A DNA stretch of 64,000 nt from Vermamoeba vermiformis (lineage: Eukaryota): the NCBI GenBank assembly GCA_045837725.1, contig JBEWZL010000084.1, positions 124,001-188,000 of the forward strand, in the 5' to 3' direction. This document shows positions 18,566 through 54,531 of the stretch, in pieces. The notes beneath the pieces were generated by a model. It was not told where the DNA came from and made no database searches. It saw nothing but the letters and a program-made list of their open reading frames with translations. The translations under genes were made by a program, and so were the position numbers. How positions within the stretch are numbered: the stretch's first letter is position 1; the number at the start of each line of letters is the position of its first letter.

Positions 18566-20923
18566 TTATTGCTTTTTGACGAGCTCAAAATCACCAATAT
18601 GCACTGCGTCGAACACTTTACCACGATAGTAGTCGTCGTCCAAGGAGTCCTCATTCCAAAAGTACTTGTCGAGCGTATCTAAGTCGATCTCGTCGTAGAT
18701 TCTGTTTTCACATACTGACTGCACTCTATTGACGGTAATTACGGACAACACCTGTGCCGAGTTAGAGAAATTATTTCCTGAATTATGGTGCTACATACTG
18801 GTTTTCTAACGCACAGGCAAAAATTCAGATGGCTAAGCGGATGAATATTGTTTGCAAATAGTCTGGCGCCACTGACCTCCAATTTGTTTGGGTGACTAAT
18901 GCACTCGATACCCATTGATTTTTCAATGAGCTCAATGGTCTCAATAGCTTCAGTCTGGTAGAATTGATTAGCTCGATCGCGTGCCTTGCAAGAAGATTTA
19001 CCTTTCTCATCAGTGTAGCGCACAGCTCGAAGGGATAGTTCCAGTCATTGGTACCCTCGGTTCTATCATACTTGAGGATCGTGTTGCCGTCGCTAGATTC
19101 AGCAACAGGCGAGCCAGAAGGAACCTTCGAGTGCGAATCTGCAGGATGGCAGTAAGTCACGTTCGGAGACAGTCTGAAATGGCTGCATAGAATATCAGGG
19201 TGTTCGTTCATATATTCCACATGCGCCTTAAAGTCCACGGGGTTGTAGTAATAGACGTCGTCCACTCCCCACAGGATGTAGTCGTCGGATTTGTTCAGCA
19301 GTTCTTTGAGCTGTGCCGCAAAGTTATGTTCGCGGACAAACTTGACTTGGGGGAACATCTCAGCTAGCTTCTCGTAAGACTTGGTGTAGGGTGGTGTCGT
19401 TAAGTAGAGCACGTAGACAGTCATTTCAATGTTCTTCAGCGCGTACTGCAACAACGTTCGCAAATATTCCTTCAATTGAAAGGCTCTGAAAGGGCGATAT
19501 TAGGCGATACTGAGAGGTATATTATCGATGTTTTAGGTCCGTACCTGTCTTTAGAAAAGCAAATTACTGACAGTCGTGACGTGTTCAGTTTGCTCTTGGG
19601 CTTTTGTTCGCTATTTACAGCCGCCTTATTCGTGGCTAAAGAAGTCATGCCCATGAGCAATGAGAGCTGTTGCGAAGGATTACGCGAGAGCCACTTGCGC
19701 CAGATGGTTGATTCGGATGGATTAGGGAAGTACTTGAGCGACAGTGACGCGAGCTCTCCCATTCTTTTCGTAGCCTCGGCACTGATTTCGGACTTTTCCT
19801 CCGTACTTAGATGGCCCAGCGAAAGAAATTTCTTCTCGAGCTTTTCAATGGCATCGCATGCACGATCGAATTTCTCCCCTGAATCAAGTAGCTTGACGTT
19901 GTAAAGTGCCTCGACAGTGCTCTTGTCAATATCAGCACCGATGAATGACTGCCAGTAATGATGCAGCAAGGTCAATGTGCCTTCGTGTTGAACGGATCTA
20001 AATTTCTTGGACAAGTTGTTGTCGTGTTTTCGAAGTCGAAGGACGTGAGGCTTAGGTAAATTCGAGATCTTGAACTTGTTGGATTGTGTAATGATTCTAA
20101 GCCACAAATCATAATCTTCATTGTGCATGTATGTCGAAGAGTAGCTGAGTTCTTGTAAGACTTCTTTGCGGCAGATAATAGACGGATGTACAATGCAGCA
20201 GTTAAAGAACATTGACCAGTGGACTGTGCCAACGCTAGTAGGATGTTCTACAAGCTGTCGAGTAACAATATTTAGCATTATTAGTATCGAAGTATAACGG
20301 AGAAACGTGCTTACTTTCTTTTTCGTGTCATCACCATGCAGGAACATTTCAACGGCGCCACCAAGCACTGAAATATCGGGATGTGCTTCCAACATTTTAA
20401 CTTGCCGTCTATAATACGAAATGAATAAGGATCACCGCGGAAGGTCTTTGTGAACTTACTCTAGTCGATCGGGACTGGAGATATCATCTGAATCCATTCT
20501 TGCGATATATTTGCCTTGTGCAGCAGTTAAGCCATCTAATAAAGCAGCCACAATACCATTATTTGAAGGTTTGGCAATAATTTTGATTCTGTCAAAAGGT
20601 TAACGTCATTAAAGCCTTCGAGGAATCAAAAATCAATAAAAAATTAAGAAAAAATATCCAACGAGTCAAAATAGGCACTTCATTGTCGTGTGATCAGGAT
20701 CTTACCTCTGGTCAGTTTTAAAATTTGCCAGGACATTTTTTGTTGCCTCGTCAGATCCGTCATCTACAATTATCAGCTCAAAGCTCTTAAAAGTTTGATT
20801 GAGGATGCTGTCTACAGCCTCTTTGACAAACTTATTATCATTATATACAGGAAGAATAACGCTGACGAGTGGTGTTTCCATTTTGGTGGATCTCAAAACT
20901 TTTTTGACCGCTGACGTGTTCAT
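18566..20923 (-). CDS. pgtA: Bifunctional Skp1 glycosyltransferase PgtA/FT85 (GT2 beta-1,3-galactosyltransferase + GT74 alpha-1,2-fucosyltransferase); start at 20923 or 20881
   Basis: GT2 VSVILP..ELIIVDDGS, IARMDSDD, plus motifs recalled from Dictyostelium PgtA: WSMFFNCCIVHPS, MGELASL, WLSRNP, ICFSKDRAFQLKEYLRT, DWNYP, HPNKLE, NRVQ, VHIG. Confidence 0.9.
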
Positions 20924-21009: not shown

Positions 21010-23722
21010 ATGAGTAAGCGAAGGGCGTCAGAGTTAAGCAAAGTCAGCACGGAAAAAACTGCTGATCGAAAGCGAGTAAGTGTCCAAGCAATTTATTATA
21101 AATGTTGTTCGTGTAAATCATGAAATTAGAGGTCTGGTGAGGCTTAATACGGCCGGCAAATATTTATTACGATTTTTGTATTTATTTTTTAAATTACGCA
21201 ATTTCCCTTATTTTCATAATACGCATAGAACTTCAATCCTTTACATTCCTAAAACAAATATTAAGCATAGCGGAATGACGTTTGATTAATATTTTTTGTC
21301 CGGCAGAAAGCGCAAGATATCTCATCTGAGGAGAAAACACCCAAAAAGAGCCGTACTTCATTAGCTGAAACGCCTAGAACGAGGATTTATCGAAGCAGAA
21401 GCGTTAAAGACACTGCTAAGACTCCCGAAAAAGACAAGGGAAGTAAATCCGTCGCGAAGACACCCAAGTCAGGCGAGAAGCGAAAACGGACTACCGAGGC
21501 TGAGAATGTGTTCCAAGCAGCTCATTTCGACAGCGAGAGCGAAGTTAGCTTGGCTGAGGAGTCAGATGACGAGGAAGAATTGAGACGAAAGAAAAAGATC
21601 CGAAAAGTACGTAATTTTTTTTAATTTTAACCCAATGAATAGTATCTCCTTATTCCGGTAGCTCATAAAAAAATAGAAAGAAGTTTCTAATTCTCACGGG
21701 AAGATCTACACTTCATGTTCGACAGATCTCTAATTAGCTATTTTACTTTCTAGGTCGAAAAAGAGCAAGATGTTGCTGTTAATCCCGACAAAGAAGAGCC
21801 TATAAGACCAACTAGTGCGAAGAAAACGGGTACCAAGCTGTTCATAGATCCATCACTCTTGGCACCGAAAGACAAGCCTGAAATTAAGAGCAATGACAAT
21901 AGCAGCGCTGTTAGTCCGTTCAAAAATATCGTGCCCGAGGCGAAGAGTCCGGAAGATATTAGAAAGGCTTTGTCGGAGGTCAAAGCTAAAAGAAAAAGTC
22001 TCGGCAAGAGCGAATCTGATCCACATACGAAAACCCCTAAAACTCCGACTGAACGAGAGCCTTTCAGATATATCCCCGAAACGCACTCAAATCATTCCGA
22101 TCCTATGCAAGTCGAAGAAGACAAAGAAGATAATAGTGCACATAGCGGATTCAACGTTGAAACTTCACCCTTCTCTTTTATCCCTACACCAGCTGTCGTC
22201 TTAAAGCGAAGCGGCGAGGACACGATGAATAACAATAATAACACTCTAGTAGAGCGTAGTGAGGTAGTTAACAACACCAATAGAAATCGTCCTCAGCCTG
22301 CAGATCACGTGGACTTCTTCAATAATTACACGACGGCAGATCTGCCGCCCAAATCACCGAAAAATCCGTTCAGAGAATTAGCGGAGATGGAAGCACGTGC
22401 TGGATCGCATACTCCTATTTTTGGAACTGACCAAGATGAGCTCTCGGGGTCCGACAGATCCTCTTTCACGACACAAGCTCCCGCCATCACAACGTCGACC
22501 AATCCGTTTGTACCACGTTTTCAACAGCCAGTGCCGGTCGTTAAACCGATCAACCAATCACAGCCCGCCAAGGTCTTGTGGAACAGTGGCAACACCGCTG
22601 AAACACGAGTAGTTGAGATGCCTTTCGGTCAAAAGCCACTAGTCCCTGCACGCCCTACAATCCAACATAGAAGAATATCGATCATGCCTAGCGCTGATAA
22701 TGTTGTTTCAACGGACTTTGGTATCGAACAAGTGGATCCTACCGAGGAAGATCAGACCGTGAAGATCCACTTGCCAAAGAAACAGCCGCACAATTTCAAA
22801 GCTCTTAAGACTATCTTGGGATTCTTATTATTGGGCTTGGCTGTTGGTGCATTGGCCTATTACATCATTAATTTTGTTGAGGTAAGCCACCAGCTTCGGT
22901 CAACGTTTGGTCAAACCTAATGTAACGCTCGGTCATTTACTTACCAACTCTATTCGTAGGTGAAACAAAATGAAGCAATTTTATCGCGCATGGAAAAGAT
23001 TTTGAAGACACAACACGGGCTCGCTGATTGTGGCGACGCATTTTCATCAATTTTATCAGGAGCGGACATTCTGAAAAAGTATAACGAGATCTACGGTCCT
23101 ATTGACGACGTGAGTAATATAAGACATTTAATTTATACTTGAAGTTGTCGTTTCTAATTCTATTCTTCTAGACTAAAGCAGACGGATATTTGGGACAACT
23201 AGCAGAGTTTACAGAGATCCAAGTGATTCAGCCAGCTAATATCGGCGGAGAAGATGACGTATTGAGCCACCGTCTGTTGCGATTTGAACACGAGCAATCG
23301 TTAAGGCCTTGGGACTGCATTGTAAGTCATTAGTATACATCGATTTAAGGACTAAATGTACCGTTTATTAGATGCGCGAATTTGTTACTGAATATAGAAC
23401 GCCTATTAGTTTGATCGGAGTGGCTATTATCGCTACTTTCAGCGTACTTTTGACGATTAAAAGAAGAAGAGTGGCTAATATGCACGTTCAAGGCTTAGTC
23501 TCGCGCATTCAAGCCGAATTAATTTCGAAGAAAAACAGCAGCAATCCGTACATTGCCAAAGAGCACTTGCGCGAACGATTGGTCAATACGAAGATTAATA
23601 AGGACAGCGCTAGTCATTGGAACAAAGCCGAGAAGATTATTGAAGATGATTCGCGTGTATTAGTAACGCCGCAGCTGATTCATGGACAACAAATGGATTG
23701 CTGGCGGTGGGTTGCTAGTTAA
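21010..23722 (+). CDS. src1: Src1/Heh1/MAN1-family inner nuclear membrane protein
   Basis: Long S/TP-rich nucleoplasmic region with NLS, two TM helices flanking a Cys-containing lumenal loop, C-terminal MSC winged helix (YIAKEHLRERL..WNKAEKIIEDDSRV..HGQQMDCWRW). Confidence 0.8.
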
Positions 23723-23907
23723 GTGTAAAAATAGTTCACAAAATTCAAAATAAAAACGCGGTCTTTTTTCTGAAGTTCATCGTGCGTTAACAATGAAAAT
23801 CTTACACGACCTTTTAGAATACCAAAGCACAGGTTACAGACACGCCTGAACAGCTCTGGCATTTTGAACGGTCTGGATTTGGATTGATTTTCAATCCTTT
23901 ACGAAAA

Positions 23908-26900
23908 ATGGAGCTAATTACATCACCGAGAAAGAGAAAAATTGACAACATTTTAGCCATGGATGATATTTACCAGCCAAATAAGAAAATCAAAATTGAG
24001 TTGGATACCGGATGCCAAATCAACGAGCAATTACCAAAAGAATTAATGGTAGAAATATTCTCAGAATTAAGCACAAAAGATCGCATCAATAGCTCTGAGA
24101 CGTGTAAATATTGGCTTGCCTGCGAATCTGTCACTTTCAAAGGCTGGATTTCGATTGGTGCCGACAAAATAATGTTACCAGAGGAAAATTTTGAAGGTCG
24201 AGGTACATATAAATACATAAATGATTTTAATATTAATTCTAAACTGATTGCAATAGACAAAGACAAGTGGGATGAATTATACGCCTTGAAAGCAGAGTTT
24301 AAATGCGACGCTGTCGTTACGGATAAGGGAAAGGGAGTCAAATCGTGCCAGGTGCGTATCTAATCCCAAGCGCCATTTATATCTAATTTTTTTTCAGATC
24401 TTGATCTCATCCGCATTAGATCCGACGCTAAAGATCTCAGACACATACAAGCTGACCAAAGAAGGAAATATGGTGCATAAAAATGTGATGCGCGCATATT
24501 ATACGGGCAAGATTTTGCCAATCATTATGAACAGCACGAACACTTTAAGTAGTGGCATCGAAACCAAGCAATGGAGAATTAAATTTACTGCAATGCCGAA
24601 ACACGAAGGTATAGTCGAAGGAGACAAGGCATTCTTAATGGAGTATTATTACAACATATTTGAGTAAGTATTTTCCGTTTTTCATCGATGTGTTGACGCT
24701 TGAGTTAATTGCAATTAAAATTCAATTGGTAAATCGTATTCGCGGGGCTATATCAAATCAATTGGCACTTTTTGGATTAATATCTCGTGTCAACTGGACT
24801 TAAAGTATTAACCCTTCAACTTAACAGACTCGAGAACGCCGTCAGAGAAGGAAATCTCGAATGGGAGTCCATTCTCATCAATAGGTTGGTTGAAAAAGAA
24901 GTCGAGCTTTATATGGATGAAGAGGAACTGAAAGAAAAATTCACATTGATCGAAGAGGCCATGATTATGAAGGTAACTGATGACTCGGTACGAAAGGAAT
25001 TGACGGAGTTTTGCAATAGGAGCCGAGAAGAATCGAGTCTCCGATTGGCCTGAAAAAAGAATTCAAATTCCACCAATACCAACTTGACGCAATTAGCTGG
25101 ATGAGCGACGCAGAAAAAAATGTGGATCGAGGTACGTTTTATTGCTTTACCACTCATCAGAATTATAACCCAACGATTACTAGAGTTCAAGTATTGTCCG
25201 TTGGTCCCATGGCGTCGAAGTCGTTCAAATGTGCTTGTAGATCTGCACGAGAAAAAGTTCGTAACACTGGACAAGAAGAATGAATATACTGGTAGCTTCA
25301 AATCTAAGGGTGCAGCGCTTGCTGACATATCAGGACTCGGAAAAACTCTAGAAAGTAAGATCCGACTACAATCCAACCACAAGTATTTAACTGTTAGTCA
25401 TCGGATTGGCGCTTCTCACGCTAAAGCAAGAATTCCCTGAATATGGAGACAATGGTTTATACAATACAAGGGCGACGTTAGGTAAATACTGGTACAAAAT
25501 TAAGTCGATCCGATCATAATGCTTGGTAGTGGTGTGCCCTGAAAAGGTGGTCCAACATTGGGTCGACGAAATTTCAGGCTTCACTGAACTGAAAGTCATT
25601 GCCATCCCGACTATAGAAATACTTAAATCGATAACATACAACGATATTGTAGCATCAGGTAATGCAGAGCATTCGAATACGCAAAGTATCTAAAGTTTTG
25701 CAGAGTTCGTCATCGTTTCGTCTTCAGTGCTTGCAGACACAAAGTATTTTGACCTGTGCTGTGGTAGAAAAAAACTAGCGAGAAATAAGACCGGCTTCAA
25801 AGCTCGAGCGAATCTCCTTCAAACTTCTCTGACTGTAAGTCGTTTGTTTGGCAAACCGAAAAATTTACGATTAACCCCCAATGCCCAGAAAATCAAAGCT
25901 GGCGATGGTTTGCAGGCAAAAGGACCGCTGTTAGAGCACTTCAATTTTGTGCGAGTAGTTGTTGATGAAGCACATCAAGTGTTAGCTAATTCTCCTGTGT
26001 GCAGTAAGAGTAACAACAGAATATCAATCAGGTCACTTATTATTCTATTTAGATTTGATATGTGGCATTACAAAAGAGTTTGGGTGGTATGTGAGTTCAG
26101 AGGCATTTCCAACAGAGTAAGTAGATACTATTCATTTCAATTTGCCTTACGTTAATTCATTAGGGAGGTGCTTGTAGCTGCCAAAAGGTTCTTCGAGATT
26201 CCAACTGACATTGTATCAAAGAGAGGCAGTGTTGGTGATAAGTATGAGAGGTATGGTTTTTTGTGACAGGTCAAAGTGTCATCCTGATTTTTTCATGCTC
26301 AACAGGCAACTCAAAGATGAACTTATTTACAAACATCTGATATGGCGCAATACACTTCAGTCCATTGTTAAGTCAGCCACAATTCCTGAGTACGAAGAAA
26401 TTATCAATCTAGTTGATTTTCATCCAATTGAAACGTTGCTTGACAAAGGTAACCTTGCCATGTGTTAATTTTTAACACTGATGTATTGGATGATAGATTG
26501 TAATGAGAAAATAGAACAGTACAACTTGTGGATGGGTAATCTACCTTTTGATACTCTGGATCAAAGTGTTCATGGATCAATCAAAATTTTGCAGGTCAGT
26601 GTGCAATATGTTCATAGTGAAGAATTGCAAGCTAATGCCTCCTTTAGCAAAAAAGCGCTGAAAGGCAGCAACAAATTGCAAACATCAAATACCCAAGAAA
26701 CAGATATGGTGATACACCTTATGGTGAACTAATGACTAAGCAGAATTGTGAGAAAGATATCAAACTACTTGAGGAAAAGATATCAGAATGGACTGCAGTT
26801 GACACAGTGCTTATGGAAAAACATGTTGATGATGATGAAGTGGCACATCTAACATTGGTGAATAATTATGGCAGCAAAATAGCAGCGATCATTGAGTGGG

Positions 26901-27432
26901 TGAAGCTAACTATTCAAAATGACTGCAAAAGTTGCATCATATTCTTTTCCAAGGTTTGTGATGCCTGGATCTGCAAATCAAATACTGATACTTGATAACT
27001 AGGATACACCCTACCTCACAAAGTTACACAAAATATTTTCTCAACAAAGAGTGCAAGCATCTCTTATTGAAGGGTATGCAAGACAGGGTCTTTTAGACTT
27101 GACTGACTGATTTTACTTACTATATTGTTTTAAGAAGTGCTACACAAAAAGCAACAATAATCAAGCAATGCAAAGAAGAAAATGTCCAGGTGGTGCTTGC
27201 ACAATTAATTGATGCCTCTGACCTTACACCTCTTGAAGTGAGTCACCTTGTACTGCTGGATCCAGTGCTAAGTAGTGCCCAAGAAATACAAGCAGAAGAG
27301 AGACTAGCTGTAAGTCGTGTAAACTCACAGAGAAGAGAGCTGAAAGTGCAACTTGTGCGGTTCATTATTCGTAACAAAGAAGATGAAGTTTACAACCTAA
27401 AAAAACGACTATTGAAATTAATGGAGGACTGA
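23908..27432 (+). CDS. F-box + divergent SNF2-family (Rad5/16-like) ATPase, many exons
   Basis: F-box LPKELMVEIFSEL..TCKYW; FHQYQLDAISWM; LADISGLGKT; ATLVVCP..VQHWVDEI; RVVVDEAH; YGSKI; SHLVLLDP; VRFII. Confidence 0.75.
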
Positions 27433-27515
27433 ACAAATTGTGATTCAGATTGGAGTAGTAAATTTTTGATTCATGTTTATAAATCTGTAATACCCTGCTG
27501 TGTAAAAAAACCTAG

Positions 27516-30500
27516 TTACAGTGTAATTGTTTTCTGCAGCTTATTTTGTTCATCTTTGATGTACTCATTAATGGACTTGTACCCCATTTGAGCAGCAGTT
27601 TCAAACCAACTCTCCTTGTTTAAAGTTATCTCCTTGAAGTTTTCTTGTGAAATAATGATGTGCAGGGCTTGTCCATTATCTGTCACATGAGATACATCCT
27701 CATTTGTTTGTGGCATTCTTATGTCAAAGCGAACTTCTTTCCATTTGGTTGCCAGCTGAATTGTTTTAAAAGCTGTGTGTGCTGATTTGGGGAATGGTGT
27801 TTTAGTTTGAGTGTTCTTTTGATAGTTGGCTGTAAATTTGGTCTTCTGCTTTGGTTGCTTAACAGTAACAGCTCTGAAGTCCTCTTTTGTTTCTGGAGAG
27901 GAGTAGCAATATGCTCCAATGGAATACAGCACATCACCTGGGAGGTAAATTAGTATTTTAATATATTGAAGTTGTCTTTTACCTTTGAAGCCTATCAAAT
28001 CTGGCCCAAAATACTTGCTTGGCTTCACCAAAGCTTTGTCGTACTTTGTCAATAACATAAGTAACTCTGGGGTATACTGTGCATCAGCAGCTTTGATTGC
28101 TTGAAGTGCTTTCAGCTCTACTCTTGCTGTTTCTTCATTTTTGAACAGTTGACCAAGTACAGGTGATCCTTGGAACTGCTTTTTCAAAGTAGCAGTGCCA
28201 GACCTGAGGTTGACTTTTGCAAGCAGTGCAGCTGCATCAGACAGTTCCAAACAATACCTGGCTTCCCCATAGAAAGTCCATGGGCTTGGGAAAGCAGTTG
28301 CATCTGTCCAGTCAGGGAGTTTCGTATCTAGTGAGGCAATGATTGGCAGTTGATTAATTTTCACTAGTGTTTTGGATAAGTTCATCTGTTTTAAGTGTTA
28401 GAAAAGTATTTCTAAAAATAAAGGAGTGCTCACAAATAATGCTCCGATCAAAGACTCAAAAGTGTTCCCCTTAGCATTTACTGAAGGAGAAAAGCTTGGG
28501 TCCACAGCAGAAGCAAGATCTCTTTCAAACTTTGTAACGAATGGGATGAACCAAGTAATTGTGGAAGCCATCCAGAGATGAAATATCGCAAATGAAAGTG
28601 GTTCACAAATGCCAAAGTACTTTACCCCTGAATTTGAGTTAATTGAAGCAGTCCAATTGAACATGGATGTTGCTTTCTTACAGTTTTGTCCATCCAGTTC
28701 AACAGATAACTTTTGCTCTCGCTTAGTTACCAAGGTGAAGCCAAGATCCTCCAAATTTACTCCCAGTTCTTTGCACATAGTTTCTGAGATGCAGTGCTGT
28801 GAGCTTATTGCAGTGTTGACATACAGTTGCTTTAGCAAGTTATTCCCTTTTGAGATAAAGTGTCACTAGATTAGTTACTGAAATTAAGGCTTACATTTTT
28901 CCATCTTTGCTGGGTCTTTCTCAAGCTGTATATGCAAGTGCTGGAGTCTTGTGTGCACATAATTTTTGACATCTTTGTGAAGCTTATCAACTGAAGTCTT
29001 AACTAAATCTTCAAAATCTTTGACTGTGGAATCAATGTCTGAACTACACATTATGTTTAGTAGGGCTGTAATTCGCTGTAATCGTCCTTGGGCAACTTTG
29101 CCAATCAATTTCTGAAGAGCAGGGGCTCTCTTAAGGTCAGGAAAATACGTGGACACAATTTCAATTGCTTTTTCTGCTGTAACAAGTGGAAATTCTAATT
29201 GGCTGTCACTGAAATCTATGTCATTTGCAGGTTTTGATTCACCACTCTTTCCAACACCACCCAAATTTGTCATTTGTGTTCCAGTGACAATCACTGTGCG
29301 CAGTGCTGGCAGGGAATAGTGAACAAGAACAGAAAGGAAGGTCCTACAGGAGATTAGTACTTAACAGAATTTCAATTGCTGTCTTACGTTCTCTCGTTGA
29401 TGGAGTTAACAAACTTGACTTTGTGTGGGACTTCAGGCTCTTCAAAAAGTCCCTGTGCTAATTGGACTTCATCCACCACAAACACAATGTCTTCAGTGAG
29501 TGCTTTCAAGCATGCATTTAACTCTCGTTGCTTTGCATAAACCCAAGTGTCATTGCAGCTGTTGGTTAAATCAGCAATAAATTTGTCTCCAAGAGTCTTC
29601 ATTGTTGTTTCAATATCAGGGTATCCACTGCTGACAAGTGCTAGCCAATTGGCTGGAGAGATACTTGACCGGTATCTGTCAAGGACTAGAGCGTGTGACA
29701 ACCACAGCAGTTGTGTCAAGCAAGTCATGATGTCTGTGGCTAGACTAGGAGAACATTTGTTGGCTGCAATGATTTCTGCCGCTATTTGACCTTGTTTACA
29801 AAAGGTTTGAAAAGCAGAATTGTGATTTTTCTGATCTGCTCCTTGCTTGATTTCAACATACAAGACATAGTGTTGTTGGGCGTATGCAAAGATGGAGCCT
29901 AGTAATTGGAGTTAGAAAGACAACAAAAAAATGTGTACATACCAGTTTTGCCAATTCCAGAAGTCCCATGTAGAGTAACAAGTTTGCTCTGGTTAGGCCT
30001 GACATCTTTTTGAAGAGCATTGATGATGGGGTCGTCAAAGAATGGTTTGTCAAGAAAGTGGAAATCGACTTTGCCATTTGCAACGTTGAATGGAATTTTC
30101 GTGAAGTTCCAATACTTAAAGACGACTTTATCTTTCCAAAGTTCACAAATCTCGTCACGAGTGAGTACCAACTTGGTTTTTGACGGCGCAGGGCATTGTA
30201 ATTTGAGGTTGTCTTGCACGTTGTCATGAACTGTGGTCCAATTTTGCAGCTTCTTTTTAATCGCTTCCGCTTCATTTTCCAGTCCAACACTGCCCCAATC
30301 CATCTCAGGGTCTAACAACTGCGTGCCACTAATATTCTTTTCGGCCAGCTTAGCAATGATGGCTTGCGTACCAGCTTCAGATCCACCGACATCCTGCGAT
30401 ATAAACTCTTGAACTTCGTGGGTGGTCCAGTCGGTAGCTAAAAATTGCTTCGTTAACGATTCATTTGCTATATTAAGTATACGAGAGCACTTACGTCGCT

Positions 30501-30521
30501 TGTGTCGAAAAGATTGCCGAG
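27516..30521 (-). CDS. SAM-like + P-loop NTPase + PD-(D/E)xK-like nuclease protein (Crinkler/CR-effector-type architecture); start codon not resolved
   Basis: PTDWTTHEVQEFI..KNISGTQLL (SAM-like); LHGTSGIGKT Walker A; FVVDEVQ Walker B; GRLQR; KGNTFESLI; KPSKYFGPDLIGF. Confidence 0.65.
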
Positions 30522-31557
30522 CTGGATGCAAAAACGAGTGAGTAAAAACTGTTTCGTAACCGAAAAAAGTCTTATAAGAATATTACCTTGGTTAGCCAAG
30601 CTAATGTGTCTTATATAGTACCTCGGTACCGCTCCGTTTTTGCGCTGAGAAAATAGATTTGCTCTAACCCCAGGCCGGAAAATACTCTTTGGTACTTTTA
30701 GAAATTAATTAAATGGAAATGTTGTTACATAACGTATTTCGGCATCGCCGAATATTAAATTATTTTTTAAAATTGAAAAATGCGTAATTTGTCGGGATTT
30801 GACTCTGAAGTGTACCTGATCTACGAACAGCAAGGCTAACAGCTCGTTCAAACATAGTAAGCATTTAATTAAACCAATTGAAACTATCGTATTTCAGGTT
30901 TTGTCCATCTGCCCGTAGCCACTCTTTTTCGGGACTAGTAATGTTCATACACCATCCTTTCTCGTGCACCAAACCGTTTTGGGCGTCAATAGCGTGATCT
31001 GCATCATGTTTGTTATTAACGATAATAATTAGTTGCAAAAATGTTTTTTTAGGCGGGCTAATTTTACACGGCCTGATCTTAGCCAGTTTGCCGATGGAAC
31101 AACACACGGAGCGTCATTATATTTTTCCAATTAAGCGCTTAAATTTAATGTTTCTCAAGAAAGTGTCATACGGCGTAACGCAGCAAATAGTTCGAGAATT
31201 AACTACAACGAAAATAACCAAAATGTCACCCGATCTGTTAATTTAAAGAAAAAAATGTCGAAGTAATGTAACAAAATATTATTGCTTTAATTTAACATAT
31301 TTTAATAATTTACCTCCTCAGATTACAGTTCGTGATTTTGTAATTGCAACCCGTCAGGCTGTTGGGTGGCACCATGAAAAGCGATATTTACGGGAAGGAG
31401 GTCTCGTCAAAACCGACAAGCGTCTGAAATTGGCCAGCGACAAACCTACATCCGCTTCCAAGAAAAAAAATATCCAAGGCCATAAATAGCGGTTACCAGC
31501 CATTTTTCCAATTCTTTCAACATAAACAACTCCTTAGTCAAAACCAAAAGCATCACT

Positions 31558-34336
31558 ATGTCTTCATCTGGAAAAGGACGTCCCGCATTCAACAGAGACA
31601 ACTCTAGATCACTTTGTATTAAAGAAGGCTTGGCTTTTCTCGCTCAAACGACTGGAAAAACTACAAATAATATTCCCAAGCGAAAAGCTAAGAGAATCGT
31701 CGTTTTTGAAGCAGCTCAACATGTCGCCAAGGTTAATGGACGCAAATCTGCTCGAAAAACTCGCTCTGCCCGCACTCTTCGTGGAAAGCTTGTTAATAGA
31801 CGCCGCCAAGCATTGAACAACAACAATAATAACAACGTTAAAGCTCAACCTGCTGCCGCCGCGCCAAAACCCGCTGTAACTCGATCGACTGCCAAGAAAA
31901 TCCGCAAGGTGATTCCTCCCAAGCCTGCCGCCATGCCCAAACCCGTCGTAAACAACACTACCGTTACCCCAGTCAACAATAACAACGCTGGATTCAATTT
32001 TGGAAATGTTGCTGCAGTAAATCCAGGAAATGCTATGTCAAGTACGTCCAATCTAACTCCTTAGTGACTTTTTAGCTCAAATACTGATCGCAATATTATT
32101 ATAGACCTAAAAGCCTTGCCTACTTCATGGCGTTTCTCTACGCCTGCTCCTGCATTCGGCTTGTACGTGGATGACTCAAATGTTTTCTGCGGTGACAACC
32201 AAGGCAACATTTATCAGTTCTCGCATGACGGCGACCTTAAAAACCATTTGAAATTGCCATACGGTGTTAAATCCATCGTTCGCGATTATCAGTGGCTTTA
32301 TGCCGGATGCGACAACGGAGTTGTGTACGATGTAACCGACAAAGATCAGCCCAGAATTGCTTACGAGATCCCTGAAGACGGTCAATTCGACGAGCATGAA
32401 GTCATGGCTAATATTGACGACTTGTTGCATGATCACGAAGCCACATCCAACAACGAGAAAGGCGCTCGACAAAAACTCACTACCATTCGTCAAACTAAGA
32501 AGAAGCACGTCGTATTTGCGTTGGATACATCTAGTTCCATGAGCTGTAAGTATTTTAAACTCTTACTATCATTTTTTCGTTCAATTTCTAACGGATTCAT
32601 TTGTAATAGCCAACAGACAATTCGAATCTGCTTTACAAAACATGAAAATGATCTTCAACCATCATATGCAAGACCACGACTTGGTGTCTTTCGTTACCTT
32701 CGACAGCACCGTCTCCGTCAAGTTCGAGAACAAGGTCAAATCTGCCGATCGTGCTCAGATCATGACTGGATTCGACTCTGCTCGTCCTTCTGGCGCCACT
32801 GCCTTATGGGACGCTATTCAGCGATCAGTCGAACTCGTCACTAAGCCTCAAGACACCGACGTTGATCGCTGGATCATTTGTTTAACGGATGGTGAGGACA
32901 ACAGATCTGCATCTCGCCCCAACACCTTGATGACTTTGCTGCGCGACAAGCAACAAACAGCACCTTGCAACCTCGTGCTCATCGATGTTATGCACCGTCC
33001 TCGCTCCGAATTGCAACAACTGTGCGAAGCTACCGAGCACGGACTTTACATCCCCGTGCACTCGTACAAGGGCATCGAAGAGGCCTTCAAACTCGTGGCA
33101 CAAGTGCTCAACGCCAAGGTCTTGTGGATGGACGTCAGCGACGGTCTTCTTGCTGTCAGCGACAACCGTGGTTCCGTCACCGTGTGCAACATTGAAGGTG
33201 AAAAGATGTGGTCGCAGAAGTCTTCAGGCAAGGCAGGCTGGATGGTCCGCGCTGATGCCAGTGCTGTCTATCACGGCCATTCAAAGGGTATCGACGCCTA
33301 TTCGCTCCGATCTGGCGATCAACGCTGGCAAGTCAAGTTGCCCGAGGGTCCTGTCATGTCTGGCACGCAAAGCCGCGAGTTCTTGTTTGCAGCCACTGGT
33401 CCGCTCGTGCAATCCTTGGACAAGGAAGGCAAGCTCATCATGCGCACACCCGCTGGCCAGGCCTCAATCACTGCTACTGCCTTGGCGCCAGATCAAGACA
33501 ACGAGGACGGCCTGCTCATCGTGGCCGCTGGCACTGACGGCTCTTTGACTGCCTACGACTCTGTCAAGGGCACTCAAAAGTGGTCGTTCTCGCTTGGTGG
33601 TGGATCTGCCCTCTCTGTCGCGGCTCGTGGCTCACGTGTCTTCATCGTGACAACTGACGGTCAATTGATCTGTGGTGACGTGTCAAATGACACTGTCAAG
33701 AAGGCTCTCGCTGGCACATTCAACGCCGCAGCTCGCAACATTGCCGCGCCTGAAACTACTGCTAACACGATTGTTCCGACCAATCAGGTTGACACCATCA
33801 ACACGCCTTTGCCTGATGGCTCTATCGTCGTTGAGTGCTCTCGTGCTTTGTCCGATGCCGATGTGATGGCCATTCACAACGCTATCCACAGCACCGCTGA
33901 TCACGTGACCATTCAAGGTGTTGACTGGCCAGTCCATGTTGGCAACGCTAACTGCCGCTTCATTCGCTGGGACGACACTTTGACATTCATCGAGCAGAAC
34001 AAGACCAAGACCAGCAAGTACGCCAAGATGTCACGTGACGGCCACAAGATCACGTGGATCATCAAGCAGGGTCGTTGGGGCCTCATCATCGACAACAAGA
34101 TTGAACACAACGGAACCAAGCTCAAAGTTCGTGTGTCAGCCAAGTACGCCCAACAATTCAACCAAAAGTTCGACGTCAATTGGGACGTGCAGTTCCCGAA
34201 CGAGTTGCGTGAAGAAGGCGCCGAGTTTGTGGTCGATGAGCTTGTCCAGGCTGAGAACGGCAATTACTACCGCGTCAAGGGCAACATCAAGCGCGTTGTC
34301 AATGCGAATAACACCAACGCGATGGAAACTAATTAA
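31558..34336 (+). CDS. ~883-aa protein: basic N-terminus, PQQ/WD40-like beta-propeller with inserted VWA domain, conserved C-terminal domain
   Basis: Exons 31558-32041, 32105-32545, 32610-34336 join in frame; complete MIDAS (DTSSS, GATAL, LTDGED); propeller blades with W at blade ends; WDVQFP..LRE.GA.FVVD..YYRVKGNIKR terminus. Confidence 0.85.
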
Positions 34337-40834: not shown

Positions 40835-43531
40835 TTAATCGTCCTTGCTCAAGACGTAGTTTTTGAGGTTCTTAGCGAGCTCTGCGCTTGGAGACCGAGA
40901 CAAAAGCACTTCAATAACCAACTGTTCCAAAATTTGATTAACTTTTGCCCCGTAAATGAAGTCGCCGATAGTTTTGTACGCGTAGGGAGCATCGATGCTT
41001 AAATCAGCGAGATTATCGATCAAGGCAAGCAATCTAACGTAAGGTAAATTAATTAGTCATAATTTATGAAAGCTATTTTTAGGTGTTGCTTACTCTTGTT
41101 CTGCTTGCAAGGAAGTAATGAATCCAATGCTATTCAAGTGCAAGAAGAGCTTGACGTATGGCGCAGAATCATGCTGATCGAACGCAAAATTGATAATTTC
41201 GGTCAAACAAGACGAGACATTGCTCGTACTCGTCATTGCTTGCGTTGTTTCTTCGAGATCGTCATCAACGGCGTACTCTTCGAGTATCTTTCGAATACGC
41301 TCTTCATAGCTCGTTTTTACGTCAGAAGTTGCTACCGGATCGAGATCAGTTTTTCGGATCATGACCATTGGTTGAGGAGGCAAGACGTAAGGGTCTTCTT
41401 CTTTAGGAGCAGCAATAGTGGCTGTTTTAGGTGCAGGAGTTACAGCAGGTTGGTTCAAAGCCAGTTCTTGGTCCATATCTTCTAACGCAGCTTCTAAGTG
41501 GATCTCGCCAATTGTCTTCGGACCCGAAACTTTTCTTCGCGGCACCCAATTGTTCTTACGCTGCTCGACAAGGTCTTTGAGCATAAACCGAAGTCTTGAA
41601 GCCAACAGCTTGTTCTTGCTCGCTTGTTCAATCTTGGTCCAGTAATCGTCCATGATCTTCTTTTGTTGGGCTGTTTTGTCCAATCGTCCTTCGACCGTAA
41701 CCAACAATTTGCAGAGCTGTTGCACAGCGAGCTCAGCGTCGGCAAGCTAAAGAAGTATCACTATTAGTTAATGCTCGGAACTACTATATAATCGTGCTAA
41801 AGCTACCTGTTGTGGACCTTCAGCAGCTGTGCCAATCTTGTCCAACAAGACGGACATGCAACGCTGAATAATCTTCTCGGGGAACAACTTGATCTTGAAC
41901 AGCTCGCCAATGAACACGACATTGCCCAGAATTCTTCGACGAAGCTTGGTCTCTTGTTCTTCGTCAACACCATTCGGAATCTTTTCTTCGAACACGATCT
42001 AGTGATGAAAATAAGATTAGCATTACACGTGTGAGCAGGCGTGTTAGATGAACTACATACTTGGCATTGGTTCAACAGAACGCTTCTAAAGGTCGATTTG
42101 CCATCACCGAGGGTCGGACAGTTGTCGTTCAAACGCTTGCAGAGGTCGCTGTACATGGCGCTGAAGTGAGGCTCGGACAAAGCCTTGTTGTGCACGAGTT
42201 CGATTGAAGCTTGCAGCGATTCTTGCGAGTCAATGGACTTGAACAAATTCACCATCTTTTCAGCGAGTTGATCGAACTTTTCGACGGTCAATTTGTTCAA
42301 TAGACTGCGCATCTTGCCAAAGAACAAATCCACTTCTTCTTTTTTCTTAGTAGGTCTCTTTTGCTTGTCATCCTGCTACGACCGGAGTTAAAAGAGTTTT
42401 GTAACGGAATTTTCGTAGAATTTTTTGGCGAATTAGAATATTAATATTACGTACTGTTTGAGGCTTATCATTCGTTCGTCCAGTGCCGCCGGTTTGTTGC
42501 TGTCCGCCTCGACCGCCACGGCCACCACGTCCGTTTCCTCGTCCACCGCGAGATCCAGAGTCTCTTTGATTACTGTAACCGCCTTGCTGATTTTTATCTT
42601 GATTTTGGAATCCACTCGATAAATTCTGGTTGCTTTCGCGTGATATAGGCGCTTGAGTATAGCCATCGGTCCATAAACTATTTTCCTTTAAGTTGGTTGC
42701 CGTCTCGTCGTCTGGCAAAACTTCATTTGGCTAAGAATATTCCAAATTTAGTAATTTGCTAAATATATTAAAATAGCTGATTTTTTTAAGTCATACCGTT
42801 CTTAAAGCGAATAAAAAGTTTCTAGTATAAATAAAGTTCTGCAGATCCGTCGGAATTTCTTTCATCTCCGGACGCTCACTCTGTCCGGTTGTATTTGTCG
42901 AATATGAAGACCTATCGTCTTGTTGATATGACTTTTGGCCCGAGGAATAATTGTTTTGCTAAAAATAGCAAGTATTAGTCAAAGGGCAATTTAATCTTGA
43001 TAGCGCCATTTCGTAGGCCTCCCAAATAATTAATTAATTTATAAAATCACCTAAATTATTTATTCGATATTTTTGTTAATAAAAAATTGGCGGTTGGAAG
43101 TGAAGGAATAATTTAGATCGAATTAAATTCGGTTCTTACCTTGTTAGAGCCTTGTTGATTTTGAAATATATTCGTTTGAGTAGACTGTTGCGCATTTTGT
43201 GCCTTATTAGCATCGTTTGAGCTCGCATCTGTTGTGGGTGTCTCTACTTTTTTGGGCTCGGACTTTTTGCGCATCCAAGCAGGCATAAACTGAATATAAT
43301 ATTAGAAACGCACATTCACATTATTTATAAATAATTAATAATTATAGGTTTAATTTTAAAATTCGGCCAGATCAAATTTCAGATCTGAAAAATTTTAAAT
43401 TTTGTGTCTCGACGATCTATTAGCTCTTAACATGGAATTTAGAATTTAATAAATATGTGGAGCACCGATGATGCGATGTAAAGCAATAAATAGCTTACCT
43501 TATTCTCTGTGGCTGATTTAGTTTCTGACAT
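40835..43531 (-). CDS. EIF4G: Compact eIF4G-family translation initiation factor
   Basis: 4E-binding YTRNFLF (YxxxxL-phi); RGG box; MIF4G RSLLNKLT.EKF, KALSEPHFSAMY, LGNVVFIGELFK, SRLRFMLKDL..W, GPKTIGEIH; MA3-like C-terminus. Confidence 0.9.
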
Positions 43532-44004
43532 CTGTAAAAAAAATATATGGAATCAGTCCAAAGCACCACTAGTAAATTCTAGCGTAAATAGCCAGCATAT
43601 GGCACGATGAAATCAATTTCTTAAATTTTTTGGGTATTATTAAGCGCAAAATTTTCTCATCGGCAATGAAAAGCTATGCTATCACATTCTACAGTAGCCT
43701 ATGGCTATATTGCGCAAAAACTGTACCTTTGGTTGTGTTTATAAAATATGTTGGGCTGAATGAAGAACTCTGAGCGAATTAAATTGCACCAAAAATTCTG
43801 ACCAATCAAAAGCTACCTCCAGAAAACTCGAACTGGCACTAACTGGCACCACAAATGACATAAAGCGTAGTAATAACCAACATATTCAACATGTTTGAAA
43901 GTAAATTCGAAGTGTAATCGTTGTTGGTGTTTGGAGTTCTGTATTGTTTCAACCAATTTTCCTAAATTATACCCGGCTAAATCAGATCACCACAGTACAT
44001 AAAT

Positions 44005-52900: not shown

Positions 52901-54531
52901 TTGCCTAATGTCTTCGTAAAATGTCTTGGCTTTATCGGGATTACTTTTCAGTGAAAAGCTAAACACACCATCAGGGCACAGATACCTATATTTCTATACA
53001 TGGGAATCGTATCAGTACATCGCTGTGTGAAAACTCCGAAAAAAAATAAATTCGAAGAATGATAAAATCAGCGTGCCAACGTGACGCGATGATAAATTTT
53101 CCTTATTTGGAATAATCACGATATTATCGATGCCGGAGTTATTATATTGCACGTCACTTACGCTTTCCATGTCCTCTTCTAAGGCCATTTGATAGCCCAG
53201 TACACCGAGGGACCAAATGTCAACTTTCTCGTCGTAATTGTGCTTCAAAAAGTGACTTTCAACGATCTCAGGGGCCATGTAGAACGGTGTGCCCCACATT
53301 GTTTGCGCACCTGCCTCGTTGTACCGCGCAATGCCAAAGTCACCCAGGACCGCATCTGAGTTGTCTCGTTGTTTCGATGTCAAGAATACGTTCTTAGGCC
53401 TACATAATAAATTGTTATAAGCGATCAAGTTTTGCAGTTTTGCATATTACGTCGTGATTTTTTTGGTTATTTTTTGCAGATCAGATCACGTACTTTATGT
53501 CTCTATGTAAGATACCGTGATGATGCAAGTGTTGCACTGCTAGCGTAATTTGATAAAGCCACTTCTTGCATTGCTATATAAACGAGATTAGTATTAAACA
53601 CGAAACTAGGTACGAACAGTAATGATTGACAATGACCGGATCCAAAAATGGAAGCGCGAACACAATCTAGACTATTAAAGCAGCCCGCTAATATTAAATA
53701 ACGTACCTCTTCAGGAATAGGCCTATCTATCGTACTCAAGTCACCTCCAGCATAATAATCCATAATAATTTCGCCGATCAGTTTGTTCGTAATGAAGTCT
53801 GAGCTCATTGAAACATCTTCTGCTCGCGCCAAGCAAGGGTGCCGAAAGTCTTCTTTAATTAATATAGCGAACTGCATTGAATTGATGTGTTAATCGATGT
53901 ATTGCTAGCCGAAAAAGATTCGCAATTAATTTGTTGCGGAAAACGACATCCAATCGTAGCGATTTGCTAAACAACGATTTTAGACGTTATTTGGATTCAA
54001 TTAAGTAAATTTGCGTAATTTTATAGGAAATTCGCGATCTATATTTACTACGATTGAAAGAAAAAACAATTCCATTTGAGATCTACTAACATAGCAATTT
54101 GTTTAAGGCTGAGTAAAACTGGAATTCTACTTACCTCAGTACGAACATTTCTAACGTCTTTTGCGTGTCCGAGACTAATAACTAATTTCTTATAGACCTT
54201 CTTGTTGCCGATCGGATCCTCGACTAAACAGGCAAGGCCTTGGCCACCGCGTCCAAATAATTTAATCACCTTCAAAAATATTAATAACAGTATTAGAGTG
54301 TATTAATAGGCTCGATTATGAAATTAAGCACTTTGATTTTCTTTTATTTTCCCTTGTTTTTTCAATCTGCGATAGTAGTTGATAAAAAGTTTAATTATCA
54401 TCGATTATATTGTATGCATATTAATAATAATTTAATGATCGAGAAATAAGCTCTATCGCGATTGGTTAAGCAAAAAAGAATTTCAGGATGTTGTCGAGTC
54501 CCCAAAACAAATCGCCTACCTTGTACTGCAT
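49931..54531 (-). CDS. Ser/Thr protein kinase (NEK-like) with C2-like domain and long P/Q/N/S-rich tail
   Basis: MQYK|VIKLFGRGGQG, IIMDYYAGGDL, HRDIK|PKN, DFG, GTPFYMAPE, DIWSLG, RPSADEIL; beta-rich C2-like exon 52083-52345. Confidence 0.85.

What the first reader, a model, noticed from the sequence alone, without database searches (positions are those of the whole stretch)
25960..30030. Sharply bounded ~4-kb CpG-depleted island in a CpG-rich genome
Seen: by manual count 27481-28380 has 3 CpG in 900 bp, versus about 19 in 300 bp at 19501-19800; TG and CA are abundant. Depletion covers exons, introns and the intergenic gap of two convergent genes but stops inside each gene, leaving their 5' ends CpG-normal. 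Known: 5mCpG deamination produces this signature. Inference: long-term targeted cytosine methylation of these two accessory or selfish-looking genes while housekeeping neighbours are unmethylated, i.e. a locus-specific silencing or gene-body methylation system.
Basis: partly seen in the sequence, partly recalled or inferred. Interest (0 to 1): 0.75.

Follow-up and report, generated by a model that had tools for sequence, protein, structure and literature searches.

The report
CpG-depleted island over convergent genes
A 4-kb stretch of this microbial eukaryote's genome has lost about 85% of its CG dinucleotides to TG/CA, the classic scar of long-term cytosine methylation, over the downstream parts of two intact tail-to-tail genes, while the rest of the 64 kb looks unmethylated.

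Summary
An unsupervised change-point fit returns 25961-30030: 29 CpG in 4070 bp (7.1/kb) against 47.7/kb outside. Both edges are step-like, going from 10 to 1 CpG per 200 bp.

About 165-186 CpG are missing. About 154-185 extra TpG+CpA and a 4-point GC drop balance this loss. Simulated CpG-to-TpG/CpA decay of native windows reproduces the island's composition. Synonymous sites, codon junctions, introns and the intergenic gap are all depleted.

The island covers the 3' 42% of an F-box/SNF2-like gene and the 3' 82% or more of a convergent orphan P-loop gene. Both genes are intact and carry native-type 43-64-nt introns inside the island. Their stop codons lie 83 nt apart.

Best reading (about 0.6): in-situ decay under a long-lived, locus-specific 5mC domain that spares both promoter-proximal ends. 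Methylation itself, DNMT genes and expression could not be tested, because no genome is held.

I found no transposon or viral hallmarks, so "selfish-looking" is unsupported. Both genes are lineage-restricted.

Rivals are a tract imported from a CpG-poor copy and a repeat-triggered CpG mutation process. This is a new example of a known signature.

The parts
25961..30030 (.). CpG-depleted island: 29 CpG in 4070 bp, CpG o/e 0.19, TpG o/e 1.42, CpA o/e 1.47, GC 38.6% against 42.8% in the 6-kb flanks
   Evidence: Change-point fit; sliding windows; dinucleotide null distribution and balance; decay simulation
23908..27432 (+). Gene 1: F-box plus divergent SNF2-like ATPase. My model has 16 exons, 15 introns and 884 codons, with no internal stop. 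Only its 3' part (25961-27432, about 42% of the gene span) is CpG-depleted. The model is unverified by RNA and its first two introns are the least certain.
   Evidence: Model translated. F-box-like Pfam hit E 4.2e-8 on ORF 23818-24363. SNF2-rel_dom hit only E 0.0099, below cut-off, on 25520-25693. The GLGKT, VVCP and DEAH motifs are read by eye and recalled from memory.
25964..25975 (+). DEAH codons (helicase motif II by my reading), 3 nt inside the left edge. The ATPase core therefore runs continuously across the edge.
   Evidence: The motif name is recalled, not returned by a tool.
27433..27515 (.). The 83-nt gap between the two convergent stop codons, with 0 CpG. It is too short for two separate 3' UTRs, so overlapping transcripts are inferred.
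   Evidence: Stop positions; CpG count over 27433-27518. The overlap is inference only.
27516..30582 (-). Gene 2: orphan protein with a Walker-A P-loop. It has 6 exons and 5 introns (29942-29899, 29387-29344, 28894-28847, 28433-28386, 27981-27937; 44-48 nt). The frame is 944 codons from the upstream stop, and the first in-frame ATG is at 30303. There is no internal stop. The part from 30030 down to the stop is CpG-depleted; 30031-30582 is CpG-normal.
   Evidence: Model. No Pfam family at E of 0.01 or better for any exon piece. No homologue of exon 2. Atlas gave no usable hit. Exon 1 has 2 relatives only.
29944..29967 (-). Walker-A-like GTSGIGKT codons of gene 2, 64 nt inside the right edge and directly before intron 1. 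The two relatives' ORFs read into an intron at the same point.
   Evidence: The motif name is recalled.
30031..30750 (-). CpG-normal 5' part of gene 2 plus its presumed promoter region, shared back-to-back with the expressed gene at 31.5-34.3 kb. The true start codon and any upstream exon are unresolved.
   Evidence: CpG positions; ATG scan; sequence

Best explanation
The island is the mutational footprint of a long-lived, heritable CpG-methylation domain that formed in place. For a long evolutionary time, cytosines in CpG between about 25.96 and 30.03 kb were methylated in the cell lineage that passes on the genome. Deamination of 5mC turned about 85% of them into TpG/CpA. The domain covers the bodies and 3' ends of two convergent, lineage-restricted but still intact genes and the 83-nt gap between them. 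It ends abruptly about 2 kb (gene 1) and about 0.3-0.7 kb (gene 2) downstream of their starts, so both promoter-proximal regions stayed unmethylated. Shown: the specific, balanced CpG-to-TpG/CpA conversion, its edges, its independence of coding status, the native composition apart from CpG, and the intact genes. Inferred: that 5mC was the cause, that the domain was stable to about one nucleosome, and what targets it. My preferred trigger is overlapping convergent transcription or 3'-biased, transcription-coupled chromatin marks, with spreading stopped by the active 5' ends. That step is the least secure.
For: (1) Specificity and balance. The CpG deficit is 165 (against the rest) to 186 (against the flanks), and the TG+CA excess is +185 to +154. 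GC is 38.6% against 42.8% in the flanks, a loss of about 171 G:C pairs. GpC is unchanged. (2) Random CpG-to-TpG/CpA decay of 103 native windows to the same residual level gives CA 1.47 and TG 1.43 against observed 1.47 and 1.42. Thirteen of 16 dinucleotides fall within |z| of 1.2 or less. The three outliers (AT, GT, AA) lie within the range of coding ORFs of the window. For AT and GT the values resemble gene 2's own CpG-normal 5' part. (3) All classes of site are hit. NCG among four-fold S/P/T/A codons is 5/192 inside against 11/39 outside in gene 2, and 2/61 against 24/94 in gene 1. Introns and the gap are also depleted. All eight NCG/CGN contexts are reduced to 6-24% of the outside rate, so this is not avoidance of one restriction-type site. 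(4) The tract looks native. The ATPase core of gene 1 and exon 1 of gene 2 run uninterrupted across the edges. Intron size and splice signals are the same inside and outside. Two-fold codon choices at positions untouched by CpG are close to the genes' 5' parts and to other ORFs for K, E, F and Q. (5) There are no element hallmarks at the edges and no second copy in the window. K-mer depth is flat across the island and flanks at 571/546/517/460. (6) The ORFs are open through 760 (gene 2) and 366 (gene 1) island codons. Together with the CpG-normal 5' ends, this fits a body-type domain compatible with gene function. (7) A close relative in an independent water metagenome carries island sequence at about 91-94% identity, on contigs at 25823-26123 and 28659-29016.
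Against: No methylation data, no DNMT gene and no genome-wide CpG survey could be obtained, so the cause is inferred from the scar alone. Step-like edges inside exons are also what a recombination, conversion or duplication tract would leave. Gene-body methylation as known in animals and plants prefers conserved housekeeping genes, and here those are CpG-normal. Repressive protist 5mC is reported on silent, often virus-derived genes and young TEs (PMC12344493, abstract), and I found no viral or TE signal. N, Y and D codon third-base choices differ somewhat from the reference sets. Two RNA-seq runs gave zero reads over 24.4-31.2 kb. They come from a strain only 90-95% identical (131 of 135 and 411 of 420 laid reads), so neither expression nor silence is shown. 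Whether the relative in the metagenome is also CpG-poor could not be read from the output.
Confidence: 0.6

Rival explanations
1. Imported tract. The 4.07-kb segment was copied into this locus by gene conversion, recombination or introgression from a homologous gene pair (a paralogue, a diverged allele or another lineage). That pair was CpG-poor because it was methylated or came from a CpG-avoiding genome. The edges are then the ends of the conversion tract and this locus need never have been methylated.
For: The edges are steps of 200 bp or less in the middle of exons, as expected for a conversion tract. Gene 2 belongs to a small family, with a 46%-identical relative sharing the same intron site. 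Island N, Y and D codon endings differ somewhat from the 5' parts.
Against: There is no second copy in the window, and 31-mer depth in the island equals the flanks (546 against 571/517), so no near-identical donor exists in that sample. Composition apart from CG/TG/CA matches native sequence, and for AT and GT it resembles gene 2's own 5' part. K, E, F and Q codon choices match. Introns inside are host-type. The donor would still need the same 5mC decay somewhere, so this moves the cause rather than replacing it.
Confidence: 0.17
2. Repeat-triggered mutation or methylation of RIP/MIP type with CpG preference. The tract was once duplicated, a premeiotic repeat-scanning process methylated or mutated exactly the duplicated length, and the partner copy was later lost or diverged.
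For: Such processes act exactly over the duplicated length, which would explain step edges inside genes (recalled knowledge of RIP and MIP, not from a call). C-to-T transitions are the outcome in both cases.
Against: Classical RIP indices are not met: TpA/ApT is 0.76 and (CpA+TpG)/(ApC+GpT) is 1.47 (the thresholds of >0.89 and <1.03 are recalled). There is no partner copy in the window and no extra depth. Both genes kept open reading frames through more than 1100 island codons, which is unusual after RIP. It is unknown whether the organism is a fungus or has meiosis.
Confidence: 0.1
3. The pattern has a non-methylation cause: selection against CpG (for example to escape a CpG-sensing factor or a restriction system), a context-specific deaminase, or an assembly or sequencing artefact.
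For: None specific.
Against: Introns, the intergenic gap and synonymous sites are hit equally, so selection on the protein or the codons is unlikely. All flanking contexts are hit, and the GC loss equals the CpG loss, leaving no room for general C deamination. Short-read contigs bridge both edges with 0 differences, and an independent metagenome holds the sequence.
Confidence: 0.05

Closest known systems
CpG o/e footprints of historical gene-body methylation in invertebrates (honeybee, PMC2975444; Cnidaria, PMC8857923; only the search listing and start of each abstract seen)
   Same: CpG loss is used as the scar of germline 5mC. It is confined to transcription units of a subset of genes, in a genome whose other genes are CpG-normal or CpG-rich.
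   Different: In those animals the depleted genes are typically conserved and broadly expressed (recalled). Here the recognisable housekeeping ORFs are CpG-normal and the two depleted genes are lineage-restricted. Here one continuous domain crosses the gap between two genes and ends as steps inside exons.
Repressive 5mC on silent genes and young TEs in Acanthamoeba, Cyanophora and Naegleria (PMC12344493; abstract and three passages read), and 5mC on endogenised giant viruses in Amoebidium (PMC11244446; listing only)
   Same: Sparse, locus-specific methylation in a microbial eukaryote, on non-housekeeping genes within an otherwise largely unmethylated gene-rich genome.
   Different: Those targets are reported as silent, heterochromatic and often of viral origin, without transcription-linked gene-body methylation. 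Here I found no viral or TE affinity. The genes are intact with host-type introns, and their 5' ends are spared. That paper's text has no passage on 'depletion' of CpG, so CpG decay there was not compared. Its supplements were not seen.
Convergent-transcription-induced DNA methylation at disiRNA loci in Neurospora (DLDM; PMC3764098, abstract read)
   Same: DNA methylation in a gene-rich, non-repeat region, triggered by convergent transcription. Here the two genes converge with 83 nt between their stops.
   Different: DLDM is described as highly dynamic (on/off) and enriched in promoter regions. Here the promoter-proximal ends are the parts spared, and the decay implies stable, long-term methylation. 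Overlapping transcripts are not shown here.
RIP and MIP of duplicated DNA in fungi (recalled, no paper read)
   Same: C-to-T changes or methylation confined to a tract with sharp ends.
   Different: The dinucleotide target is CpG, not CpA. RIP indices are not met. No duplicate is seen and the ORFs are intact.

Membership tests
5mC-deamination (CpG-decay) footprint of a methylated domain | Local CpG o/e far below the surrounding genome | tested here: met
   o/e 0.19 against a null of 1.19 +/- 0.11 (z=-9.3). All 15 of 15 inside windows are 0.31 or less; all 236 of 236 outside are 0.58 or more.
5mC-deamination (CpG-decay) footprint of a methylated domain | Matching excess of TpG and CpA, with GpC and other dinucleotides unaffected | tested here: met
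   Deficit 165-186 against excess 154-185. GC has z=-0.4. Simulated decay reproduces CA, TG and CG. Residual AT/GT/AA deviations lie within the ORF range.
5mC-deamination (CpG-decay) footprint of a methylated domain | Depletion independent of coding constraint (synonymous sites, introns, intergenic) | tested here: met
5mC-deamination (CpG-decay) footprint of a methylated domain | 5mC actually present on the residual CpGs, and a DNMT in the genome | not testable with these tools
   No genome is held. Only contigs or RNA reads of public runs were available. No DNA-methylase Pfam hit among the window ORF pieces scanned.
Transcription-linked gene-body methylation (animal/plant type) | Methylation inside transcription units with the TSS-proximal part spared | tested here: met
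   By proxy only: both 5' parts are CpG-normal (23908-25960; 30031-30582).
Transcription-linked gene-body methylation (animal/plant type) | Preferential targeting of conserved, broadly expressed genes | tested here: not met
   DEAD-box, Cnd3, MIF4G, PK and MAN1-like ORFs have o/e 0.86-1.54. The depleted genes are an orphan and a divergent F-box/SNF2-like gene.
Transcription-linked gene-body methylation (animal/plant type) | Target genes are transcribed | tested here: inconclusive
   0 reads over 24.4-31.2 kb in two RNA runs, but the reads are from a strain only 90-95% identical.
Repressive 5mC on TE or virus-derived silent genes (protist type) | Target is a transposon, a viral insertion or a gene with viral closest relatives | tested here: not met
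   No hit in viral contigs with the 293-aa exon or with the exon-1 alignment. No terminal repeats, no extra copies. Host-type introns. This is limited to single exons as queries.
Repressive 5mC on TE or virus-derived silent genes (protist type) | Whole gene including the promoter lies in the methylated, heterochromatic region | tested here: not met
   By proxy: the 5' ends and the upstream region are CpG-normal.
RIP (Neurospora type) | TpA/ApT raised and (CpA+TpG)/(ApC+GpT) lowered; duplicated partner | tested here: not met
   Indices are 0.76 and 1.47 (thresholds recalled). No partner in the window and flat depth. The whole genome is not testable.
Convergent-transcription-induced methylation (DLDM) | Convergent, overlapping transcription across the methylated region | tested here: inconclusive
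   Convergent arrangement with 83 nt between stops is shown. Overlap of transcripts is not testable, because no usable RNA reads lay there.
Convergent-transcription-induced methylation (DLDM) | Methylation enriched in promoter regions and dynamic (abstract of PMC3764098) | tested here: not met
   By proxy: the promoter-proximal ends are the spared parts, and decay to o/e 0.19 implies stable methylation.

The most novel reading that the evidence does not exclude
In a little-known microbial eukaryote with an otherwise unmethylated, CpG-rich genome, overlapping convergent transcription of two intact genes nucleates a heritable 5mC domain. The domain would be 4 kb long, with edges sharp to about one nucleosome, and would have kept the same edges long enough to erase 85% of its CpGs. 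This would be antisense or dsRNA-directed, body-type DNA methylation of functional genes, acting over evolutionary time outside plants, animals and Neurospora. It would be neither housekeeping gene-body methylation nor TE or virus silencing.
Probability: 0.12. Interest if true: 0.75.

Novelty: new member of a known kind. Interest (0 to 1): 0.45.

Why it matters
CpG decay is a free, sequence-only readout of where a lineage has kept DNA methylated for a very long time. This island implies that an unidentified, poorly sampled microbial eukaryote has, or recently had, a CpG methyltransferase system that is used very sparingly. It touches one 4-kb domain in 64 kb. It does not target housekeeping genes, as animals and plants do, and it does not target obvious transposons or viral inserts, as reported for other protists. 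Instead it marks two intact, lineage-restricted convergent genes and spares their promoters. If the genome holds more such islands, their gene content and edges would show what the system recognises. This locus has step-like edges and 29 residual CpGs, so it would make a compact test site for methylation calling and for the stability of epigenetic boundaries. If no methylation is found, the island would instead date and delimit a recombination event between diverged copies.

Tried and rejected
- Whole genome: none is held, so DNMT genes, other islands and paralogues could not be searched.
- Earlier scan notes: nothing on this genome or on look-alike sequence. 'CpG depleted' returned 8 notes on phages, bacteria and a primate satellite; only the imported-cassette idea was useful.
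- Rfam: 0 matches in the window.
- Function of gene 2:
  - No Pfam family at E of 0.01 or better on any exon piece.
  - No homologue of exon 2 among longer proteins.
  - Atlas gave no usable hit for the 293-aa C-terminal ORF.
  - AlphaFold of that ORF without an alignment gave mean pLDDT 32.6, which is unusable, so no fold search was run.
- Orthologous DNA:
  - The metagenome scan with the 293-aa exon found nothing.
  - The second scan, with the neighbouring vWA/beta-propeller protein, gave 3 loci. They share only that gene, at 75-83% nt identity.
  - L001 carries a CHD-type SNF2 gene upstream instead of genes 1 and 2. It has CpG o/e 1.28 and no depleted stretch in 15 kb.
  - So the island's state in relatives stays open.
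- Organism: a DDX24-like piece hits plants, Glomeromycota and animals alike at about 50-56%. The neighbour's close relatives are unnamed metagenome proteins. The organism is therefore not placed.
- Public runs: no RNA holder was listed by the index.
- RNA raw reads of the same species label: zero depth over 24.4-31.2 kb. The reads are only 90-95% identical where they do map, so I draw no conclusion on expression.
- Bacterial-type promoter and terminator scan of the gap: 0 sites, and not meaningful for a eukaryote.
- Gene 1 model: the automatic models were unsatisfactory, and one search found no path. The hand-curated model is used and remains unverified.
- Literature: a search for CpG-depleted, hypermethylated regions in unicellular eukaryotes with lineage-specific genes found 0 papers. 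That is one narrow query and does not show absence in print.

Full report
**Observation**

The window is 40.1% GC and CpG-rich overall, with CpG o/e 1.12. Between about 25.96 and 30.03 kb the CpG o/e of 500-bp windows falls to 0.05-0.31, while TG+CA o/e rises to 1.26-1.66 and GpC stays normal.

That is 29 CpG in 4070 bp (7.1/kb) against 47.7/kb elsewhere, about 109 log-likelihood units better than a single rate.

- All 15 of 15 windows lying wholly inside have o/e of 0.31 or less.
- All 236 of 236 windows lying wholly outside have 0.58 or more.
- Of 22 long ORFs, the 2 that lie inside have o/e 0.09 and 0.30. The other 20 have 0.86-1.54.
- The edges are steps: 10 then 1 CpG per 200 bp on the left, and 1 then 10 on the right.

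The stretch is not an assembly join. Contigs of a short-read run bridge 22001-26962, 26933-29491 and 29462-30773 with 0 differences and flat depth of 571/546/517. That run may be the assembly's own source. An independent water metagenome holds island pieces at about 91-94% identity.

**What lies there**

Gene 1 (+ strand, 23908-27432) can be read as 16 exons and 884 codons without an internal stop. Its introns are 43-64 nt, apart from one of 164 nt.
- Its N-terminus has an F-box (Pfam E 4.2e-8).
- The rest carries helicase-like motifs that I read as SNF2 type. Pfam supports this only weakly (SNF2-rel_dom E 0.0099, below cut-off).
- The left edge falls 3 nt before the DEAH codons (25964-25975), in the middle of an exon and of the ATPase core.

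Gene 2 (- strand, 30582-27516) has 6 exons, 5 introns of 44-48 nt, and 944 codons from the upstream stop, with no internal stop.
- It has a Walker-A-like GTSGIGKT but no Pfam family.
- No homologues were found for exon 2.
- An exhaustive HMMER search with exon 1 gave only 2 hits in 1.84 billion representatives. One is an 87%-identical metagenome ORF and one a 46%-identical protein. Both read into an intron at the same site.
- The right edge lies in exon 1, 88 nt upstream of intron 1.

The two stop codons are 83 nt apart.

Neighbouring ORFs include a DEAD-box helicase, condensin Cnd3, MIF4G, pyruvate kinase, a MAN1-type domain and an LRR protein. All are CpG-normal.

**What kind of change it is**

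- The island lacks 165-186 CpG relative to the rest or to the flanks, and has 154-185 extra TG+CA.
- Its GC content is 4.2 points below the flanks, about 171 base pairs, which is the number of G:C pairs that CpG-to-TpG/CpA decay would remove.
- Among 16 dinucleotides, only CG (z=-9.3), CA (+7.2) and TG (+3.6) depart strongly from 103 native windows of island size.
- I applied random CpG-to-TpG/CpA decay to those native windows down to the island's residual level. This gave CA 1.47 and TG 1.43 against observed 1.47 and 1.42, with 13 of 16 dinucleotides within |z| of 1.2 or less.
- The three remaining deviations (AT, GT, AA) lie inside the range of ordinary coding ORFs. For AT and GT they resemble gene 2's own CpG-normal 5' part.
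- Depletion hits silent third positions: NCG codons 5/192 against 11/39 in gene 2, and 2/61 against 24/94 in gene 1.
- It hits codon junctions: 6/760 against 12/184 in gene 2, and 3/366 against 34/518 in gene 1.
- It hits introns: 0 in 229 nt (gene 2) and 1 in 378 nt (gene 1) inside, against 22 in 507 nt outside. It also hits the gap between the genes.
- All flanking-base contexts are reduced to 6-24% of the outside rate.
- Classical RIP indices are not met (thresholds recalled).

This is therefore a mutational, CpG-specific C-to-T process acting on otherwise native sequence. It is not selection on the proteins, avoidance of one restriction site, or general deamination.

**In place or imported?**

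Evidence for decay in place:
- Both genes run uninterrupted across the edges.
- Intron style is the same inside and outside.
- Codon choices unaffected by CpG are close to the genes' 5' parts and to other ORFs for K, E, F and Q, and less so for N, Y and D.
- There are no terminal repeats at the edges, no second copy in the window, and no extra depth.

The step-like edges remain the best argument for a tract-defined event, either gene conversion from a CpG-poor copy or a repeat-triggered process on a former duplication. Without the genome, a diverged partner copy cannot be excluded.

**Mechanism**

The known cause of such a signature is deamination of 5-methylcytosine (established knowledge; CpG o/e is used this way in the papers listed).

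Decay to o/e 0.19 requires long-term methylation in the lineage that transmits the genome. By my rough estimate it needs more time than separates this strain from the relatives seen at 1-9% divergence.

More than 1100 island codons stayed open, and both 5' ends are CpG-normal. The domain therefore looks like a body and 3'-end domain compatible with function, not promoter silencing of dead genes.

What targets it is open. The 83-nt gap makes overlapping convergent transcripts likely, which suggests an antisense or dsRNA trigger or 3'-biased transcription-coupled marks. In that case active 5' ends would act as barriers. This step is inference.

**Comparison with known systems**

- Animal/plant gene-body methylation shares the spared 5' ends but prefers housekeeping genes, which are unaffected here.
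- Repressive 5mC in Acanthamoeba, Cyanophora and Naegleria marks silent genes, often virus-derived, and young TEs, and those species are said to lack gene-body methylation (PMC12344493, abstract and passages). I found no viral or TE affinity here.

The island is thus a new example of a known signature, with an unusual choice of target and unusual edges.

**What could not be settled**

- No genome is held, so DNMTs, other islands and paralogues are untested.
- RNA-seq reads of the same species label map only at 90-95% identity and give zero depth over 24.4-31.2 kb. This could mean silence, absence or divergence.
- A 15-kb metagenome contig of a more distant relative shares only the neighbouring gene and has no depleted stretch.
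- The organism could not be placed.
- A structure prediction of gene 2's C-terminal ORF was unusable.

**Verdict**

'Selfish-looking' is not supported, while 'lineage-restricted' is. Confidence in in-situ 5mC decay is about 0.6. Interest is moderate at 0.45: the footprint is clean, sharply bounded and testable, in a poorly known eukaryote, and belongs to a known kind.

Noticed in passing
window 31486-34336 (+): The right-hand neighbour encodes a vWA / PQQ-type beta-propeller protein and sits in a 52-58% GC block in a 40% GC window. Its only close relatives are unnamed metagenome proteins (92, 88 and 81% identity). The next hits are bacterial WGR-domain proteins, mostly Streptomyces, at 30-40% identity over about 40-50% of the query. 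It carries a spliceosomal intron (32546-32609) confirmed by RNA-seq joints. It is a candidate old bacterial gene transfer that has since been domesticated.
   Followed up: partly
window 22001-34000 against runs X9 and X11: RNA-seq runs filed under the same species label as the DNA map at only 90-95% identity (131 of 135 and 411 of 420 laid reads). The differences are mostly at sites spaced in multiples of 3 nt. The label therefore covers clearly diverged strains or cryptic species.
   Followed up: no
window 32007-32110: In the RNA strain, reads replace 102 nt with 39 other letters (10 reads in X11, 2 in X9; ends GT..TA). This looks like a length difference in a low-complexity coding stretch between strains, not an intron.
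   Followed up: no
L001 1000-5900 against window 23-31 kb: In a related metagenome contig (78% nt identity in the shared gene), the gene upstream of the vWA/propeller gene is a CHD-type SNF2 remodeller, not genes 1 and 2. Local gene order therefore differs, and the two CpG-depleted genes are not conserved neighbours.
   Followed up: partly
window 24121-24158: RNA reads of X9 match only a stretch of about 38 nt here, with unrelated sequence on both sides (7 and 9 reads). This suggests a short conserved segment shared with transcripts of another locus, just downstream of the F-box-coding stretch of gene 1.
   Followed up: no
window 51251-51750, 52501-53000 and 43501-44000: These are the mildest CpG dips outside the island, with o/e 0.58, 0.66 and 0.70. 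The first lies in a GC-rich, P/Q/S-rich low-complexity ORF. None approaches the island's values.
   Followed up: partly
window 23908-27432 (+): An N-terminal F-box fused to a divergent SNF2-like ATPase is an unusual architecture. By my reading of the model, helicase motif III and the C-terminal lobe motifs look degenerate. No tool confirmed the C-terminal helicase domain.
   Followed up: partly
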